Virus record (IMG/VR): IMGVR_UViG_3300025924_000001
Location: 32,001-96,000 of that record
DNA: 64,000 bases
From: a virus
Taxonomy: Duplodnaviria; Caudoviricetes
Strand: one strand, 5' to 3'
Every line of letters begins with the position of its first letter. Positions within the stretch are counted from its first letter, which is position 1. Shown one piece after another: positions 32,651 to 36,740 of this stretch. The position numbers were made by a program, and so were the translations under genes. Below the pieces are notes generated by a model. It had not been told where the DNA came from, searched no databases, and saw only the letters and a program-made list of their open reading frames with translations.

Positions 32651-34399
32651 TCACCCCTCCCACGGCCACCGCCCCGCCTGCCGGTCCTCCCACGGCCACC
32701 GCCCCGCCTGCCGGGCCTCGAGGGTCGGGATCAGACCGAACGTCGCGTCGGTCAGGCCGCCGAGCTCGTAGCGGTTGGTGCCCGGCTGCGTCGGCAGCGC
32801 GGACGCCGTGTAGGCGGCGACGTTGAAGGCGTAGATCGGCACGCCGCGGGGCGCCGAGGCGTCGACGTCACCGATGTGGTAGCCGTGCATGACGTTGCCG
32901 AACGTCTGCAGGTCGGTGAGGATGATGACCCGTCGGTGGTCGTCCCGCAGGGTCTCGCTCACGGCCCGGGCGATCTCGGTGCCGCCGCCGACGCTGCCGA
33001 TGCTCTTCCGGAACGTCTCCACGGCCCGCAGCAGGCTCGTGCCGCGGTCGACGCCGGTGACGTGGAACTGCCGGTTCGCGAAGCCCCACAGGTCGACGCC
33101 GGCGGGGTTCCGGATCTTCAGGGCGAGCCCAAAGATCGCGGCCGCGGTCGCGTAGTCCATCTTCGACTTGCTGGACAGCTCGCCGTAGGTCATCGAACCG
33201 GAGGTGTCGACGAGCACGAGCGTCCGCCCGTCGAGGATCGGCACGTTCGCGAGCGAGTGGCTCAGGGCCTGCTCCAGGGCGTGACCCCACCGCAGGGACT
33301 GCACCTCCCGGTAGGCGGACCAGAACCGGAACGGCAGTTGCCGGCTCCGCTTGACCTGCTCCGGGTCGGCGAGCCGCGTGATCAGCGGCCCGGCCACGGA
33401 GTCCGGGACCCCGGCCTCGTCGAGGTTGCGAAGGTTCCGCAGCAGGGCCATGTAGCCCATGGTCGGTGCGGCGAGCTGCCAGATCTCGGCGTTGGTGATC
33501 GGTTCAACCCTGGTCGGCTTCTCACCGAGCCACGGCTTGAGCCACTCCCACTGCCCGACCATCGCACCCTGGATCAGGTCCAGGGAGACCTGGTTGCCTC
33601 GCAGGGCACCCCAGGCGAGCTCGTGCCGCTCGTCGGGCGCGTAGCGCGACAGGGTGTGCCGCAGGTGGACCTTGGTCAGGGACTCCGGCGGCTCCGCGTC
33701 GTCGCGACCCTGCCGCGCTGTGATCGCCCACCGGAACAGGTCGTCCTGCCACGAGCGCTCGGCACCGGGGACGCGGACGTTCGCGTGGGTCAGCTCGAGC
33801 ACGTCACCGAACCGGACGGCCTTGGCCTCACCGTCGTAGCGCAGGAACGCGGCCTCGTCGTAGAGGCGGGTGACGGCGTCGGCGACGCCGCGCTTGACCG
33901 GCTTCGGCAGCCGGAGCTGCGCGGTGCCGTCGTCGCGGATGACGCCCCAGCGGTGCTTCCAGTAGGCGAGCAGCTCGCCGGGCTCGTCCGCGCGCTGCAG
34001 GACGGACGTGATGAGCTCGCGGTTGCCGTCACCAACCTTGCCGGCAGCGAGCCGCGCGTGCACGGCCTCCGCGGCGAGCAGCAGGGACGCGGTGCGGATG
34101 TTGCCCGGGCCGCGCAGCCAGGAGAGGAAGGCACGCACCCACGGCCACGTCTCATCGTCGGTCGCGAGGCCGCGCACGAGCTCGCGGAGCCGGTCCGTGC
34201 CCTCATCCGCGGTCTCGTAGAACGCCTTCTCGCCGGCGAACCGCGTGGTTGCGCGGAGGAACAGCTCCGATCGAGCGTCGCGCGTGTAGCCCGGGGCGCC
34301 CTCGTGGGTCACGGTGTCGGGGGTCGAGCTGACCGTCCGCAGCGGGCCGCCGGGGGCGACGCGTCGCGGCTGGGTCGCTGCCTTGTTGAATCCTGCCAC
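32651..34399 (-). CDS. Ro60/Rsr TROVE-vWA RNA-binding protein
   Basis: THEGAPGY..D.RSELF, RADEPGELLAY, KPVKRGVADA, MGYMALLRNLRN, SRQLPFRF, MIDAS LVDTSGSM, GGT, IILTD; GTG at 34399 has GAGGAG RBS. Confidence 0.93.
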   Translation of the reverse strand: MAGFNKAATQPRRVAPGGPLRTVSSTPDTVTHEGAPGYTRDARSELFLRATTRFAGEKAFYETADEGTDRLRELVRGLATDDETWPWVRAFLSWLRGPGNIRTASLLLAAEAVHARLAAGKVGDGNRELITSVLQRADEPGELLAYWKHRWGVIRDDGTAQLRLPKPVKRGVADAVTRLYDEAAFLRYDGEAKAVRFGDVLELTHANVRVPGAERSWQDDLFRWAITARQGRDDAEPPESLTKVHLRHTLSRYAPDERHELAWGALRGNQVSLDLIQGAMVGQWEWLKPWLGEKPTRVEPITNAEIWQLAAPTMGYMALLRNLRNLDEAGVPDSVAGPLITRLADPEQVKRSRQLPFRFWSAYREVQSLRWGHALEQALSHSLANVPILDGRTLVLVDTSGSMTYGELSSKSKMDYATAAAIFGLALKIRNPAGVDLWGFANRQFHVTGVDRGTSLLRAVETFRKSIGSVGGGTEIARAVSETLRDDHRRVIILTDLQTFGNVMHGYHIGDVDASAPRGVPIYAFNVAAYTASALPTQPGTNRYELGGLTDATFGLIPTLEARQAGRWPWEDRQAGRWPWEG

Positions 34400-34432
34400 G
34401 TTCCTGACTCCTCTTCCTCGTTGGTCAGACAA

Positions 34433-34476
34433 CACGAGACCCTCAGCTCGACAGGGAGTGAGCTGAGGGTCTCGTG
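34433..34476. promoter_or_regulatory. 17-bp perfect hairpin between ncRNA array and Ro60 start
   Basis: CACGAGACCCTCAGCTC / GAGCTGAGGGTCTCGTG. Confidence 0.55.
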
Positions 34477-34548
34477 GTGGTGTGGTTCACCCCGTCACGG
34501 GTCAACCACGGTGCTCGTCACGGCGACTGATTGGACGAGGTCACGCCG

Positions 34549-34622
34549 TTGCGGGGACGGGATTTGAACCCGCGACCTGTGGGTTATGAGCCCAACGCGC
34601 TACCGAGCTGCGCCACCCCGCT
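34549..34622 (-). tRNA. tRNA-Met(CAT), initiator-type
   Basis: Cloverleaf, GGG-CT-CAT-AA-CCC anticodon arm, 1:72 mismatch, TTCAAAT T-loop; CCA not encoded. Confidence 0.9.
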
Positions 34623-34628
34623 AGGGCT

Positions 34629-34732
34629 TCGTGAGCTGGACCGGGACGAGACCTGAGGTTGACGATCGGCAATGAGGCGCAACCAATTTGCGAAGTAGCC
34701 GGTCGTCAGCGCACCGTCCCGGTCGCTCACGA
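34629..34732 (-). ncRNA. Y-RNA-like unit A (short)
   Basis: Terminal stem GACCGGGACG/CGTCCCGGTC, CGGTGCG, GGCTACTTC, GGTCTCG motifs. Confidence 0.7.
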
Positions 34733-34734
34733 GG

Positions 34735-34823
34735 TTCACCACGAGACCGGAGGTTGGCTGACGGACCGTCGCTACCGATTAAGAGTCGATTGAAGTATCC
34801 GTCGGCCTTCGCACCGTGGTGAA
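34735..34823 (-). ncRNA. Y-RNA-like unit B (short, Lys anticodon-like hairpin)
   Basis: TTCACCACG/CGTGGTGAA stem, CGGTGCGAAG, GGATACTTC, CGGTCTCG. Confidence 0.75.
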
Positions 34824-34840
34824 GATCATGTAGTTGTGGG

Positions 34841-34985
34841 TCGTCGCGAGACCGAGGCCGCTCACGGTTGATTCAGTAACGTGCTACCGATTACACTACA
34901 GCCCGAGGGGCCGACGGGACTCGAACCCGTACCTCAACCTTACGAGGGTTGTATTGAAGTAGCCGCTCGCTTCGCACCGCGACGA
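34841..34985 (-). ncRNA. YrlA-like Y RNA unit C
   Basis: Shared scaffold plus permuted tRNA domain: T arm ACGGG-TTCGAGT-CCCGT, loop-closed acceptor stem, D arm GTGT-AATCGGTA-GCAC. Confidence 0.82.
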
Positions 34986-34997
34986 TGAAGTTGTGGC

Positions 34998-35132
34998 TCA
35001 CCTCGAGACCGAAGCGCCGATCGGGGTATGCCGCTTGGCCGCTGCGGCTAACGACCGGGGTTGAGACCGGTCGATGGGATTCGAACCCACGATTCCACCA
35101 GGAAGTACCCGCTCAGCTTCGCACCGAGGTGA
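34998..35132 (-). ncRNA. YrlA-like Y RNA unit D
   Basis: Shared scaffold; T arm GTGGG-TTCGAAT-CCCAT, closed acceptor CGACCGG/CCGGTCG, D-like arm. Confidence 0.8.
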
Positions 35133-35162
35133 AGTTGTCGTGAGGGGTTGCCCTCTCACTCG

Positions 35163-35236
35163 TGGCTACCGCTGGGTTCGAACCAGCGACCTCCCCGGTT
35201 TCAACGGGGCGCTCTCCCAGCCTGAGCTAGGCAGCC
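35163..35236 (-). tRNA. tRNA-Phe(GAA)
   Basis: Cloverleaf, CCCCG-TT-GAA-AC-CGGGG. Confidence 0.9.
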
Positions 35237-35240
35237 AGGT

Positions 35241-35342
35241 GCACGATGCGGGGTCATCCCCCGCTTGAGCTCGTCTCATGGCCGAGCCCTTTCAGCGGTA
35301 CAGGAACTCGAGTACTTGTCAGCTGAAGGTTCGCCGTCGTGC
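35241..35342 (-). ncRNA. Unassigned multibranch structured RNA
   Basis: GCACGA/TCGTGC closing stem with three internal hairpins, between two tRNAs. Confidence 0.4.
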
Positions 35343-35352
35343 CGGCACCCCG

Positions 35353-35423
35353 TACCCCACGCCGGGATTGAACCGGCGCCAGCCGCTTGAGGGGCGGCCG
35401 TGCTACCACTACACCAGTGGGGC
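35353..35423 (-). tRNA. tRNA-Glu(CTC), atypical (C33)
   Basis: Cloverleaf, GCCGC-CC-CTC-AA-GCGGC. Confidence 0.75.
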
Positions 35424-35427
35424 GTGC

Positions 35428-35544
35428 GTTGATGTTGCTAAGCTGAATAGTACCACCAGGTGGGAATTGAACCCCGACCGCCCGTACGTTGCGGCTCCAT
35501 CCAGGAGGGAATTGAACCCCGACATCAGCTAGTTCAACATCAAC
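35428..35544 (-). ncRNA. Unassigned RNA with twin T-loop repeats
   Basis: 10-bp terminal stem, inner AGCTGA/TCAGCT stem, two copies of GTCGGGGTTCAATTCCCwCCTGG. Confidence 0.6.
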
Positions 35545-35569
35545 TTGCGACGGCGTACGACCGTCACCG

Positions 35570-35641
35570 CGCCGGAGACGGGGATTGAACCCGCGACCTC
35601 TCCCTCGACAGGGGAGCGCTCTTCCATTGAGCTACTCTGGC
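35570..35641 (-). tRNA. tRNA-Asp(GTC)
   Basis: Cloverleaf, CTCCC-CT-GTC-GA-GGGAG; one A:C mismatch in acceptor stem. Confidence 0.87.
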
Positions 35642-35645
35642 TTGA

Positions 35646-35791
35646 CCTCACCGAGACCGAGTGATCGCTCCCGGTTCCTATTGACTCATGCTCTGCCAAC
35701 TGAGCTACCGACTGCCTAGGCCGAAGGACGGGATTCGAACCCGTGACCCTGAGTTCCGCTGAAGTATCCGAGTGCGTTCGCACCGGTGAGG
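35646..35791 (-). ncRNA. YrlA-like Y RNA unit E
   Basis: CCTCACCG/CGGTGAGG stem, GGTGCGAA, GGATACTTC, T arm ACGGG-TTCGAAT-CCCGT, D arm GCTC-AGTTGGCA-GAGC, ACTCA/TGAGT stem. Confidence 0.82.
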
Positions 35792-35858
35792 CTCGTGCTG
35801 ATCGCTGGTTGAGCCGGCGAGCGTCGGGGGGTCTTAAACCCGCCGGTTGAACTGGCGA

Positions 35859-35956
35859 TGGTGAAACCGTACCATCCGTCGTCGAGCGCTGTCCAGGGCT
35901 ATTCTCAACAACTTTTACTGTTTACAAGCGACCCTCAGCGTGGTACGGTTTCACCA
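35859..35956. promoter_or_regulatory. Divergent promoter pair
   Basis: Minus: TGGACA-N18-TACGGT; plus: TTTACA-N17-TACGGT; both share TGGTACGGTTTCACCA. Confidence 0.7.
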
Positions 35957-35985
35957 GTCAAGGCGACCGAGCGAGGAGCGAGAGC

Positions 35986-36249
35986 GTGAACGAGGGCAGT
36001 GAGGTCTACCTGAGAACCGACGCGAGGCGTCGGACCATGGGCATCATCGTCAAGGACCTGGGCGGCAAGCCGGGCAAGCGTCGGTTCACGGTCGCGTGGA
36101 TCGACACCGGCGGCAAGCCCACCGATCACCTGGAAGCGGACCTCGTCGAGGTTCCGAGCGCGATCAACACCGTGACCGGCAACGTTGCCGGCAACGTCAT
36201 CCAGACGAGCACCTTCAACGGCTCCATCACCTTCAACCAGCGCGGCTGA
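35986..36249 (+). CDS. Hypothetical protein
   Basis: GAGGAG RBS, first gene after promoter. Confidence 0.65.
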   Translation: MNEGSEVYLRTDARRRTMGIIVKDLGGKPGKRRFTVAWIDTGGKPTDHLEADLVEVPSAINTVTGNVAGNVIQTSTFNGSITFNQRG

Positions 36250-36284
36250 ACGACGTCAACCGAGTGGAACAGGAATGAGGAACC

Positions 36285-36740
36285 ATGAGCGATGACCAAC
36301 TGAGGCTCGGCACCCGCATCAGGGTCAATGACACAAACCGTCTCGAGAGCCTGCACGGTCTCAAGGGAACGATCGTCGCCACGCAGCCTGGTGGCTCGTA
36401 CCTCGCGTGGATCGACGAGGAGGCTGAGGTGTTCGACTTCAACCGAGGCGAGATCGACGTCCACGTCGAGCCGACGGTCGTGCGGATCCGGAGTCGCGAT
36501 CGGCTGCTCGAGCTGAAGGCTCAGCTGGGCGTCCGGGACGACTGGCACGAGCCGAGCGAGCGGCTCGTGACCGCCGAGGTTCGAGGCAAGTGCTTCGACA
36601 ACGCCGGCACTTGGGGCCGGAGCGACCTTCGTGGGAAGAGCCACGAGGAGGTGCACATCGTGCTTCGTCAGGACGGCGACGAGGTCGCGATCGTCAACCT
36701 CGCGACCCTGTTCGCGTTCGCGACGGGCTACGAGGGATGA
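36285..36740 (+). CDS. Hypothetical protein
   Basis: GAGGA RBS, 151 aa. Confidence 0.65.
   Translation: MSDDQLRLGTRIRVNDTNRLESLHGLKGTIVATQPGGSYLAWIDEEAEVFDFNRGEIDVHVEPTVVRIRSRDRLLELKAQLGVRDDWHEPSERLVTAEVRGKCFDNAGTWGRSDLRGKSHEEVHIVLRQDGDEVAIVNLATLFAFATGYEG

What the first reader, a model, noticed from the sequence alone, without database searches (positions are those of the whole stretch)
34841..34985. Y RNA unit C contains a complete circularly permuted tRNA-Thr(CGU)
Seen in order: anticodon arm CAACC-CTCGTAA-GGTTG (34935-34951), variable AGGT, T arm, acceptor stem closed by a short loop, TA, D arm. All four tRNA arms are present, opened between the D and anticodon arms. Units D and E lack the anticodon arm. 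Inference: a non-chargeable full tRNA mimic, or less likely a permuted tRNA precursor; it also hints at how YrlA arose from tandem tRNAs.
Basis: partly seen in the sequence, partly recalled or inferred. Interest (0 to 1): 0.82.

Follow-up and report, generated by a model that had tools for sequence, protein, structure and literature searches.

The report
Phage Y RNA with anticodon-like arm
A small RNA gene in front of a phage's Ro60 gene is one of the known tRNA-mimicking Y RNAs, and it also has a hairpin built like a tRNA anticodon arm; its three "anticodon" letters differ between related phages, so it is a shape mimic and not a threonine tRNA.

Summary
On the minus strand, 34985-34841 has a paired terminal stem with a Ro60-type handle. 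It is followed by a 5-bp/7-nt hairpin (34951-34935, loop CUCGUAA), a 4-nt linker, a T arm, a loop-closed 6-bp acceptor stem, UA and a D arm.

RNAalifold on five orthologues predicts this layout without being given it. The terminal, T and acceptor stems carry compensatory changes.

It is a YrlA-class Y RNA in a complete 112-kb phage genome, one of five Y-like units lying among four tRNAs upstream of a Ro60 (TROVE) gene.

The "Thr(CGU)" label does not hold. Relatives read UGU, CGC or GAU in an unchanged stem.

The hairpin is widespread. A perfect copy occurs in 33 of 72 phage tRNA-like Y modules (controls 0-3) and in 67 of 120 cellular YrlA-like hits, mostly beside Ro60. Loops follow anticodon-loop rules (Y32, U33, R37, A38, often U36-A37-A38), and positions 34-35 vary freely.

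Chen et al. 2014 drew this element as a "V" (variable-arm) stem-loop. The permuted-tRNA view and the dimeric-tRNA origin are also in print. What may be new is reading V as an anticodon arm.

One caveat: folding this one sequence alone favours a competing helix.

The scan has reported other rewired YrlA forms on other DNA.

The parts
34841..34985 (-). Y RNA unit C as a whole: a YrlA-class, tRNA-like Y RNA
   Evidence: Sequence. RNAalifold consensus of 5 orthologues. Covariance model R1 match.
34978..34985 (-). 5' strand of the terminal stem (P1), UCGUCGCG
   Evidence: Pairs with 34841-34848. All 8 pairs are kept in 5 orthologues, with one compensatory U:A to A:U change.
34841..34848 (-). 3' strand of the terminal stem (P1), CGCGACGA
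34970..34978 (-). Ro60-handle motif GGUGCGAAG, close to the published GNCGAAN0-1G motif
   Evidence: Shared by the Y-like units of the array. The published motif is described in Chen 2014. Binding to Ro60 is inferred.
34956..34962 (-). CUACUUC, the conserved YUAY-type motif that precedes the hairpin
   Evidence: Chen 2014 place YUAY at the start of their V region.
34935..34951 (-). Anticodon-arm-like hairpin: 5 bp (CAACC/GGUUG) and the 7-nt loop CUCGUAA. It corresponds to the 'V' stem-loop of Chen 2014.
   Evidence: Stem invariant and loop variable in the orthologues. The same element is in 33 of 72 phage modules, against 0-3 in controls.
34931..34934 (-). 4-nt linker AGGU, like a class I tRNA variable loop. 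Its last U can pair with A15 of the D loop (Levitt pair).
   Evidence: Invariant in the orthologues. The Levitt pairing is inferred from the A15:U48 / G15:C48 rule in Chen 2014.
34914..34930 (-). T arm: ACGGG, loop UUCGAGU, CCCGU
   Evidence: Two compensatory pairs among the orthologues. Rfam YrlA and tRNA alignments.
34899..34913 (-). Loop-closed acceptor-like stem: 6 bp, loop CUC
   Evidence: One pair takes G:C, U:A and A:U among the orthologues.
34881..34896 (-). D arm: GUGU, loop AAUCGGUA, GCAC. It is preceded by UA at 34897-34898.
34849..34880 (-). 3' linker and upper 3' strand of P1, including the conserved GGUCUC
   Evidence: The RNAalifold pairs here are less certain because the alignment is poor in this stretch.
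32651..34435 (-). Ro60 / TROVE-vWA protein gene (594 aa) downstream on the same strand
   Evidence: Pfam TROVE, E 5e-12. PHROG 850, RNA-binding protein, E 7e-38. 36-40% identical to annotated Ro-like proteins of actinophages.
34548..35791 (-). The surrounding array: Y-like units A (34629-34732), B (34735-34823), D (34998-35132) and E (35646-35791), and tRNAs Met, Phe, Glu and Asp

Best explanation
Unit C is a YrlA-class Y RNA gene of an uncultured phage with 68.5% G+C. It lies in a tRNA/Y RNA array upstream of the phage's Ro60 gene, on the same strand.

Its paired 5' and 3' ends carry the GGUGCGAAG / GGUCUC handle and form the stem that should dock on Ro60. The rest of the RNA is a tRNA look-alike in permuted order: anticodon-like arm, 4-nt variable loop, T arm, loop-closed acceptor stem, UA, D arm.

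The break in the tRNA circle therefore lies at the position-26 hinge between the D arm and the anticodon arm. In canonical YrlA, including unit E of this same array, the break lies in the anticodon loop.

The most likely function is a non-chargeable, non-decoding, full-length tRNA shape mimic that presents a tRNA surface on the Ro60 particle. It could tether Ro60 to a tRNA-binding factor, or gate Ro60.

Shown here: the sequence layout, conservation of the arms, compensatory changes in three stems, membership of a widespread class with the same layout, and linkage to Ro60.

Inferred: Ro60 binding, an L-shaped fold, the hairpin stacking under the D stem, and the function.
For: - Layout at the stated coordinates.
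- RNAalifold on five orthologues predicts the terminal stem, hairpin, T arm, acceptor and D arm on its own.
- On my stated structure, 100% of cells pair, against 26-46% when partners are slid. Four pairs carry compensatory changes, in the terminal, T and acceptor stems.
- A model built from 31 unrelated modules matches unit C end to end at 58.4 bits. Unit E scores 45.1 and unit D 30.5.
- Class-wide, 33 of 72 phage modules have a perfect 5-bp/7-nt hairpin 4-5 nt before the T stem. Shifted controls give 0-3 and shuffles 1.5. Only 11 of 72 have the canonical long-range 27-31:39-43 stem.
- In hairpin-bearing modules, the inner two pairs of the long-range alternative form at chance level: 10 and 15 of 33.
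- The loops follow anticodon-loop rules. Viral set: Y32 42/43, U33 40/43, R37 38/43, A38 40/43. Cellular set: 58/60, 57/60, 55/60, 45/60.
- The linker to the T stem is 4-5 nt, mostly AGGUC-like, as in class I tRNAs. By textbook knowledge, a class II variable arm is followed by only 1-2 nt.
- Ro60 gene downstream. 84 of 120 cellular loci with such RNAs hold a Ro60 homologue within 8 kb.
- Published work shows that YrlA RNAs fold like tRNA and are bound by Rsr/Ro60 (Chen 2014; Wang 2018).
Against: - Folding the window's sequence alone puts the hairpin at only 3-6% probability. The MFE (-54.0 kcal/mol) uses a competing helix, ACUUCAAU with GUUGAGGU. The best cloverleaf-like fold is -51.2 kcal/mol. 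The whole unit is no more stable than shuffles (z = -0.6). In the orthologues the hairpin has 0.4-0.86 probability.
- The hairpin stem never varies among the five orthologues, so it has no covariation of its own there. Its support comes from the wider class.
- The class sets were picked by my own patterns, and many members are related.
- Un-permuting in silico makes ARAGORN of 33 modules as tRNAs. It.5 of 33 when the arm is shuffled, so that test does not discriminate.
- Topologically, the hairpin sits where a class II variable arm would sit, which is the published drawing.
- The three bases after N26 are complementary to 41-43 more often than chance: 33, 27 and 23 of 33. A partial long-range alternative cannot be dismissed.
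- There are no expression, binding or structure data for this phage.
Confidence: 0.72

Rival explanations
1. The published drawing is right. The hairpin is the equivalent of a class II variable arm ('V' of Chen 2014). The top of the Ro60-binding stem takes the place of the anticodon stem under the D stem, so the RNA has no anticodon-arm mimic.
For: Going round the five-way junction, the order D arm, terminal stem, hairpin, T arm, acceptor maps one-to-one onto D, anticodon, variable, T, acceptor of a class II tRNA (my reasoning). Chen 2014 drew it this way. In the solved S. Typhimurium YrlA, the 5'/3' stem does occupy the anticodon-stem position. Bases 27-29 after the D arm are often complementary to 41-43.
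Against: - The hairpin has a 5-bp stem and a 7-nt loop with Y32, U33, R37 and A38. By textbook knowledge, variable arms have 3-5-nt loops without that signature.
- It is followed by a 4-5-nt AGGUC-type linker, not 1-2 nt.
- The D arm is separated from the terminal stem by about 5-6 nt, not 1 nt.
- Unit D of the same array shows what a variable-arm-like element looks like: 4 bp, a 4-nt loop and a 2-nt linker.
- The solved YrlA has no such hairpin.
Confidence: 0.15
2. In this particular phage the hairpin does not form. The RNA adopts the thermodynamically favoured alternative, in which ACUUCAAU pairs with GUUGAGGU, and the tRNA likeness of that segment is a relic.
For: The single-sequence MFE and ensemble give hairpin pair probabilities of 0.03-0.06, and the alternative is favoured by 2.8 kcal/mol. 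ACUUCA and UGAGGU are invariant in all the orthologues, so a 6-bp version of the alternative helix is always possible.
Against: - RNAalifold on the orthologues chooses the hairpin. In three orthologues the hairpin is in or near the MFE, with P = 0.4-0.86.
- CAACC and GGUUG are invariant while the flanks diverge.
- The alternative would consume the variable-loop bases that make the conserved tertiary contacts in YrlA and tRNA (Wang 2018).
- Energy models ignore tertiary contacts, and real tRNAs often fail to give a cloverleaf as the MFE (general knowledge).
Confidence: 0.07
3. It is a genuinely permuted tRNA gene. The transcript is opened in the acceptor loop, receives CCA, is rejoined or used as two pieces, and serves as tRNA-Thr(CGU) in translation.
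For: M. smegmatis YrlA is cut by RNase P and gains CCA in vivo (Chen 2014). [quoted passage not shown] The phage encodes no tRNA-Thr.
Against: - The triplet differs in every lineage: CGU, UGU, CGC, GAU with U37.
- The acceptor stem is only 6 bp, which the cited work treats as a poor RNase P substrate.
- No CCA is encoded.
- No RtcB or CCA-adding enzyme is found in the complete phage genome.
- No bacterial equivalent of the splicing endonuclease is known.
- The break lies between the D and anticodon arms, so a two-piece molecule would still carry the Ro60 stem.
Confidence: 0.02
4. The hairpin is a bait for host enzymes that act on anticodon loops. It could be a decoy for anticodon nucleases, or a substrate or tether for the t6A37 synthase TsaBD, held on Ro60.
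For: [quoted passage not shown]
- The window's loop CUCGUAA and the L010 loop CUUGUAA carry UAA.
- In 25 Streptomyces/Kitasatospora copies, positions 34 and 35 are the most variable in the hairpin, linker and T arm (1.3-1.4 bits; three other columns reach 1.0-1.2 bits); 32, 33, 36 and 38 are nearly fixed and 37 is mostly A.
- The only difference between the window and L010 within unit C is at position 34.
Against: - UAA is present in only 20 of 43 viral and 34 of 60 cellular hairpins. 86 of 206 ARAGORN-called tRNAs in the same loci also end in U36, so the enrichment is modest and confounded by relatedness.
- Two of the four unit C lineages lack UAA: CAA in L077 and UUA in L005/L006.
- The unit C D stem (GUGU/GCAC) is not the GCUC/GAGC stem of t6A substrates.
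- A free-running triplet argues against a decoy for any one anticodon nuclease. Another follow-up reached the same view for unit B.
Confidence: 0.15

Closest known systems
YrlA (Y RNA-like A; Rfam RF02553; Chen et al. 2014, PMC4201824; crystal structure in Wang et al. 2018, doi 10.1101/312249)
   Same: - Encoded next to a Ro60 gene on the same strand, in a phage, alongside tRNAs.
- A paired 5'/3' stem carries a GNCGAA-like handle.
- The effector domain has a T arm, then a loop-closed acceptor-like stem, then a D arm, with UA before the D arm and a Levitt-pair partner before the T stem.
- A fourth stem-loop upstream of T ('V') is reported for many YrlA RNAs.
- YrlA is already described as a circularly permuted tRNA, with a proposed origin from dimeric tRNAs.
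   Different: - Unit C scores only 32.9 bits against RF02553 (gathering score 69), and only over the T, acceptor and D part. None of 12 other hairpin-bearing YrlA-like RNAs tested reached the gathering score.
- The solved S. Typhimurium YrlA has no such hairpin and is said to lack the anticodon loop.
- In unit C the hairpin has the dimensions, loop signature and spacing of an anticodon arm, so the opening of the tRNA circle is best placed at position 26 and not in the anticodon loop.
M. smegmatis YrlA (Chen et al. 2014)
   Same: An actinobacterial YrlA upstream of Ro60. A primer printed in the paper (CACTTCTAATGGAATGGTCGC) implies a loop CUUCUAA, a 3' stem strand UGGAA and the linker UGGUC before the T stem. 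That is the same hairpin type (my inference).
   Different: It has a 7-bp acceptor stem, is cut by RNase P and gains CCA in vivo. Unit C has a 6-bp stem. I could not retrieve the M. smegmatis locus to check the full hairpin.
Circularly permuted tRNA genes of Cyanidioschyzon merolae and some archaea (Soma et al. 2007, as cited in Wang 2018)
   Same: The 3' half of the tRNA is encoded before the 5' half. The acceptor stem is first a closed loop, and the ends pair.
   Different: Those genes are processed by the splicing endonuclease and a ligase into working tRNAs with fixed anticodons. No such pathway is known in bacteria or phages, the triplet here is not conserved, and the paired ends carry a Ro60 handle.
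Canonical tRNA (Rfam RF00005)
   Same: A 5-bp/7-nt anticodon-type arm with Y32, U33, R37 and A38; a 4-nt variable loop; a T arm with UUCGAGU; a D loop with GG; and UA at positions 8-9.
   Different: The order is permuted. The acceptor is closed by a loop, has 6 bp and no CCA. The score is 24.3 bits, below the gathering score of 29, and that match uses a spurious acceptor stem. ARAGORN does not call it.

Membership tests
YrlA-class Y RNA (RF02553; Chen 2014) | Encoded within a few kb of a Ro60/TROVE gene | tested here: met
   The Ro60 gene is at 34435-32651(-), about 400 nt downstream on the same strand.
YrlA-class Y RNA (RF02553; Chen 2014) | The 5' and 3' ends pair into a stem that carries a GNCGAAN0-1G-like Ro60 motif | tested here: met
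   An 8-bp terminal stem with one compensatory change. The motif is GGUGCGAAG, which is one base longer than the published pattern.
YrlA-class Y RNA (RF02553; Chen 2014) | T arm, loop-closed acceptor-like stem and D arm, in that order, with tRNA-type loops | tested here: met
   Rfam YrlA alignment over model positions 30-81. Compensatory changes in the T and acceptor stems.
YrlA-class Y RNA (RF02553; Chen 2014) | Reaches the Rfam gathering score (69 bits) | tested here: not met
   32.9 bits, E 7.6e-5 in the local search. The model has no position for the hairpin, and 12 other hairpin-bearing examples also fail. I treat this as a limit of the model and not as an exclusion.
YrlA-class Y RNA (RF02553; Chen 2014) | Bound by Ro60/Rsr in vivo and carries tRNA-type modifications | not testable with these tools
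   This needs immunoprecipitation and modification mapping.
Hairpin-bearing ('complete cloverleaf') YrlA subclass, defined here | A 5-bp/7-nt hairpin 4-5 nt upstream of the T stem, plus T, closed acceptor and D arms, matching model R1 | tested here: met
   58.4 bits, rough E 5e-12, end to end. R1 was built without unit C or its orthologues.
Functional tRNA-Thr(CGU) | Anticodon conserved among orthologues | tested here: not met
   CGU, UGU, CGC and GAU in four lineages.
Functional tRNA-Thr(CGU) | Free 7-bp acceptor stem with a 3' end for CCA and aminoacylation; detected by tRNA finders | tested here: not met
   A loop-closed 6-bp stem. ARAGORN makes no call. Rfam tRNA scores 24.3 bits, below 29.
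Permuted pre-tRNA (C. merolae type) | A processing pathway (splicing endonuclease plus ligase, then opening of the acceptor) that yields a mature tRNA | tested here: inconclusive
   The complete phage genome has no RtcB and no CCA-adding enzyme. Host enzymes are unknown, and processing cannot be tested here.
Substrate of bacterial t6A37 synthase TsaBD (PMC13276492) | 36-UAA-38 in a 7-nt anticodon loop | tested here: inconclusive
   Present in the window and in L010. Absent in L077 (CAA) and in L005/L006 (UUA). Class-wide it is in 20 of 43 viral and 34 of 60 cellular hairpins.
Substrate of bacterial t6A37 synthase TsaBD (PMC13276492) | A D stem placed next to the anticodon arm as in a full-length L-shaped tRNA | not testable with these tools
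   This depends on the 3D arrangement of the five-way junction.

The most novel reading that the evidence does not exclude
The 'V' stem-loop of many bacterial and phage YrlA RNAs, unit C included, is a working anticodon-stem-loop mimic. That would make these Y RNAs complete tRNA cloverleaves hinged to Ro60 at position 26.

The conserved frame is C32-U33-N-N-U36-A37-A38 with freely varying positions 34-35. This is what the bacterial t6A synthase TsaBD reads, together with the D stem. Such RNAs would then be modified at A37, or would tether or sequester an enzyme that binds anticodon loops on the Ro60 particle.

This would name a candidate for the long-sought effector of the YrlA tRNA-like domain.
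Probability: 0.2. Interest if true: 0.75.

Novelty: new member of a known kind. Interest (0 to 1): 0.5.

Why it matters
What binds the tRNA-like domain of bacterial and phage Y RNAs is still unknown. The published view is that YrlA lacks an anticodon loop.

In a large share of these RNAs, including this phage's unit C and by inference the experimentally studied M. smegmatis YrlA, the element drawn as a variable arm has the size, loop signature and spacing of an anticodon arm. If so:

- The mimic is more complete than thought.
- The list of candidate partners widens from enzymes that bind the tRNA elbow to enzymes that read anticodon loops.
- The dimeric-tRNA origin model gains a concrete intermediate, one that keeps the first tRNA's anticodon arm intact.

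There is also a practical point. These RNAs escape the Rfam YrlA model, and one of them is called a tRNA by the Rfam tRNA model, so they are likely to be missed or mis-annotated.

Tried and rejected
1. ARAGORN on sequences un-permuted in silico. It called 32 of 33 hairpin-bearing modules as tRNAs, unit C as Thr(CGU). It also called 25.5 of 33 with the arm shuffled and 23 of 39 modules without the hairpin. The test does not discriminate and I do not use it as support.

2. Downstream CAACC (34870-34866) as a long-range partner of GGUUG. It is not conserved; L005 and L006 have CACGCC there. Rejected.

3. Canonical 27-31:39-43 closure for unit C. Four of five pairs are possible in the window and L077, but only two of five in L005 (sequence). 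Rejected as the conserved fold.

4. Retrieving M. smegmatis YrlA with the published primer. There was no exact match in genome contigs, and none with up to 2 mismatches in 401 genomes sampled from the order of a Nocardia genome. The link to M. smegmatis therefore rests on the primer sequence alone.

5. Supplements of Chen 2014 and the 2020 Annual Review are not held. I cannot exclude that the anticodon likeness of V is mentioned there or in Sim and Wolin 2018.

6. Strong U36 enrichment. It looked striking in Streptomyces. It shrinks to 53-67% against 42% in ARAGORN-called tRNAs of the same loci.

7. Promoter and terminator scans of 34300-36300 found nothing.

8. The metagenome scan with the Ro60 protein added only two close relatives.

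9. The phage nucleotide search found no close relative of the array.

Full report
**Context**

The window is part of a complete virus record of 111,864 bp with direct terminal repeats and 68.5% G+C. It carries a terminase, a portal and a tail-fibre gene.

On the minus strand, a 594-aa TROVE/vWA protein gene lies at 34435-32651. It matches Pfam TROVE at E 5e-12 and PHROG 850 at E 7e-38, and is 36-40% identical to annotated Ro-like proteins of Gordonia, Streptomyces and Arthrobacter phages. Upstream of it lies an array of four tRNAs (Asp, Glu, Phe, Met) and five units. Each unit begins GGUGCG...YUACUUC and ends GGUCUC plus a complement of its own 5' end.

**The observation**

Reading 34985 down to 34841 gives, in order:
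- terminal-stem strand UCGUCGCG;
- GGUGCGAAG;
- CUACUUC;
- AAUA;
- CAACC, loop CUCGUAA, GGUUG (34951-34935);
- AGGU;
- ACGGG, loop UUCGAGU, CCCGU;
- CGGCCC, loop CUC, GGGCUG;
- UA;
- GUGU, loop AAUCGGUA, GCAC;
- a 32-nt 3' segment;
- CGCGACGA.

Rfam matches the T, acceptor and D part to YrlA (32.9 bits; gathering score 69). It matches the hairpin, linker and T part to tRNA (24.3 bits; gathering score 29), using a spurious acceptor stem. ARAGORN calls nothing here.

**Orthologues**

Ro60-anchored and pattern searches gave the following relatives:
- L004, whose unit C is identical;
- L010, about 99% identical over the region;
- L005, L008 and L009, plus L006, with Ro60 about 75% identical;
- L077.

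In the five distinct sequences:
- The hairpin stem CAACC/GGUUG and the linker AGGU are invariant.
- The loop reads CUCGUAA, CUUGUAA, CUCGCAA or CUGAUUA.
- The T stem changes A:U to G:C and C:G to U:A.
- One acceptor pair takes G:C, U:A and A:U.
- One terminal-stem pair flips U:A to A:U.

All 140 cells of my stated structure pair, against 26-46% when partners are slid. RNAalifold, given no structure, predicts the same five helices.

So the arm is conserved but the "anticodon" is not. The name tRNA-Thr(CGU) has no support. The downstream CAACC that could compete for GGUUG is not conserved.

The only difference between L010 and the window inside unit C is at position 34. At about 1% divergence this is a single event and proves little.

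**Thermodynamics**

Folded alone, the window's unit C prefers a competing helix, ACUUCAAU with GUUGAGGU. The MFE is -54.0 kcal/mol, against -51.2 for the best fold that contains all five helices. The hairpin pairs have only 3-6% probability, and the unit is no more stable than shuffles. In L077, L005 and L006 the hairpin has 0.4-0.86 probability.

The comparative evidence contradicts it. This is the main open point.

**The class**

A pattern scan of viral contigs for the Y handle followed by a T loop returned 119 stretches. Among 72 distinct modules with a parsable T arm, closed acceptor and D arm:
- 33 have a perfect 5-bp/7-nt hairpin 4-5 nt before the T stem. Shifted controls give 0-3 and shuffles 1.5.
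- 11 have the canonical long-range 27-31:39-43 stem instead. Controls give 0-2.

In the hairpin class, the inner two pairs of the long-range alternative form at chance level. The outer three bases are complementary more often than chance (33, 27 and 23 of 33). I cannot explain this.

A second scan, of cellular genomes, gave 120 distinct hits in Streptomyces, Kitasatospora, Nocardia, Bradyrhizobium, Acidobacteriota, Bacteroidota and others. Of these, 67 carry the hairpin, and 84 of the 120 loci hold a Ro60 homologue within 8 kb.

The loops obey anticodon-loop rules: Y32 97-98%, U33 93-95%, R37 88-92%, A38 75-93%. The signature belongs to hairpins that abut a T arm. Hairpins found elsewhere after the handle occur at about the chance rate and lack the signature.

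In 25 Streptomyces/Kitasatospora copies, positions 34 and 35 are the most variable in the hairpin, linker and T arm (1.3-1.4 bits). Only the first linker base, one T-loop base and the last T-stem base also vary much (1.0-1.2 bits).

A covariance model built from 31 such modules, none of them a unit C orthologue, matches 34953-34879(-) end to end at 58.4 bits. This is above unit E (45.1) and unit D (30.5).

**Literature**

- Chen et al. 2014 described YrlA next to Ro60 in more than 250 bacteria and phages. [quoted passage not shown] They also showed that M. smegmatis YrlA is cut by RNase P and gains CCA.
- A primer printed in that paper implies that M. smegmatis YrlA has the loop CUUCUAA, the strand UGGAA and the linker UGGUC. 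That is the same hairpin type. This is my inference; I could not fetch the locus.
- Wang et al. 2018 solved the S. Typhimurium effector domain. They state that YrlA "lacks the anticodon loop", call most YrlA RNAs circularly permuted tRNAs with closed acceptor stems, and cite the dimeric-tRNA origin model.

The permuted-tRNA idea and the evolutionary hint are therefore already in print.

I found no paper in the held library that reads V as an anticodon arm. Two relevant reviews are not held.

**Anticodon arm or variable arm?**

Round the five-way junction, the hairpin sits where a class II variable arm sits. Three features argue for an anticodon arm:
- It has the 5-bp/7-nt format and the loop signature.
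- It is followed by 4-5 nt of AGGUC type, as in class I tRNAs. By textbook knowledge, a variable arm is followed by 1-2 nt.
- The D arm is 5-6 nt away from the terminal stem, not 1 nt.

Unit D of the same array carries a properly variable-arm-like element (4 bp, 4-nt loop, 2-nt linker). Unit E is canonical, with ACUCA pairing UGAGU one base after the D arm.

Only a 3D structure can settle it.

**Function**

A decoding or chargeable tRNA is very unlikely. The triplet varies, the acceptor is a closed 6-bp stem, and the phage has no RtcB or CCA-adding enzyme.

The best-supported mechanism is the published one for YrlA: a Ro60-bound RNA whose tRNA-shaped domain engages a tRNA-binding partner. Here the mimic extends to the anticodon end.

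One lead is worth testing. [quoted passage not shown] That is the conservation pattern of many of these hairpins, the window's included.

The enrichment is modest, however. UAA is in 47-57% of the hairpins, and 42% of the tRNAs in the same loci also have U36. Two unit C lineages lack UAA. I put this lead at about 0.2.

**Verdict**

Unit C is a new phage member of the known YrlA family. The possibly new point is family-wide: its "V" arm looks like an anticodon arm.

Noticed in passing
L005:2874-2959, L077:7749-7829, L010:1703-1787: Relatives carry an extra module with a T arm, a closed 7-8-bp acceptor and a D arm (CCUC...GAGG). It is flanked by GGUGG and CCAC and has no Ro60 handle. It scores 45-51 bits with model R1. 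The window lacks it: L010 has about 150 extra bases at the point that matches window 35641.
   Followed up: partly
window 34735-34823 (-), unit B; L077:8487-8570: Unit B is a short Y RNA with no T, acceptor or D arms. It still has a 5-bp/7-nt hairpin, AUCGA + CUCUUAA + UCGGU. In L077 the loop is CUGUUAA, so the triplet varies here too, in line with another follow-up's verdict.
   Followed up: partly
window 34998-35132 (-), unit D: Unit D has a mini-hairpin (UUCC, loop UGGU, GGAA) only 2 nt before its T stem. It also has a 7-bp acceptor closed by an 8-nt loop and an odd D arm. This looks like a variable-arm-type variant of the same design.
   Followed up: partly
window 35646-35791 (-), unit E: Unit E is a canonical YrlA in which ACUCA pairs with UGAGU one base after the D arm. 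In the window I could not draw a clean acceptor hairpin for it, whereas the L077 orthologue has a 10-bp one.
   Followed up: no
window 35428-35544 (-) and 35241-35342 (-): Two further structured non-coding stretches lie between the tRNAs: twin T-loop hairpins, and a possible four-way junction. Other notes of this scan already flag them.
   Followed up: no
window 34432-34477 (-): A long perfect hairpin (GAGACCCUCAGCUC ... GAGCUGAGGGUCUC) lies between tRNA-Met and the Ro60 start. It may be a terminator or attenuator without a U tract. The consensus scan did not call it.
   Followed up: no
L141:4550-4617 (-): A native hairpin-bearing YrlA-like RNA of an acidobacterial MAG is called 'tRNA' by Rfam at 33.1 bits, above the gathering score of 29. 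None of the 12 such RNAs tested reaches the YrlA gathering score, so there is a risk of mis-annotation.
   Followed up: partly
33 hairpin-bearing modules in loci L004-L129: The three bases after N26, usually C-Y-U, are complementary to positions 43-41 in 33, 27 and 23 of 33 modules, well above chance. The next two bases are not. This could be a relic of the canonical closing stem or a second conformation.
   Followed up: partly
window 34986-34998 and 34826-34840 (-): A conserved spacer, CCACAACUUCAUCG / CCACAACUACA, precedes units C and B and is kept in L005, L006 and L077. It may be a processing site.
   Followed up: no
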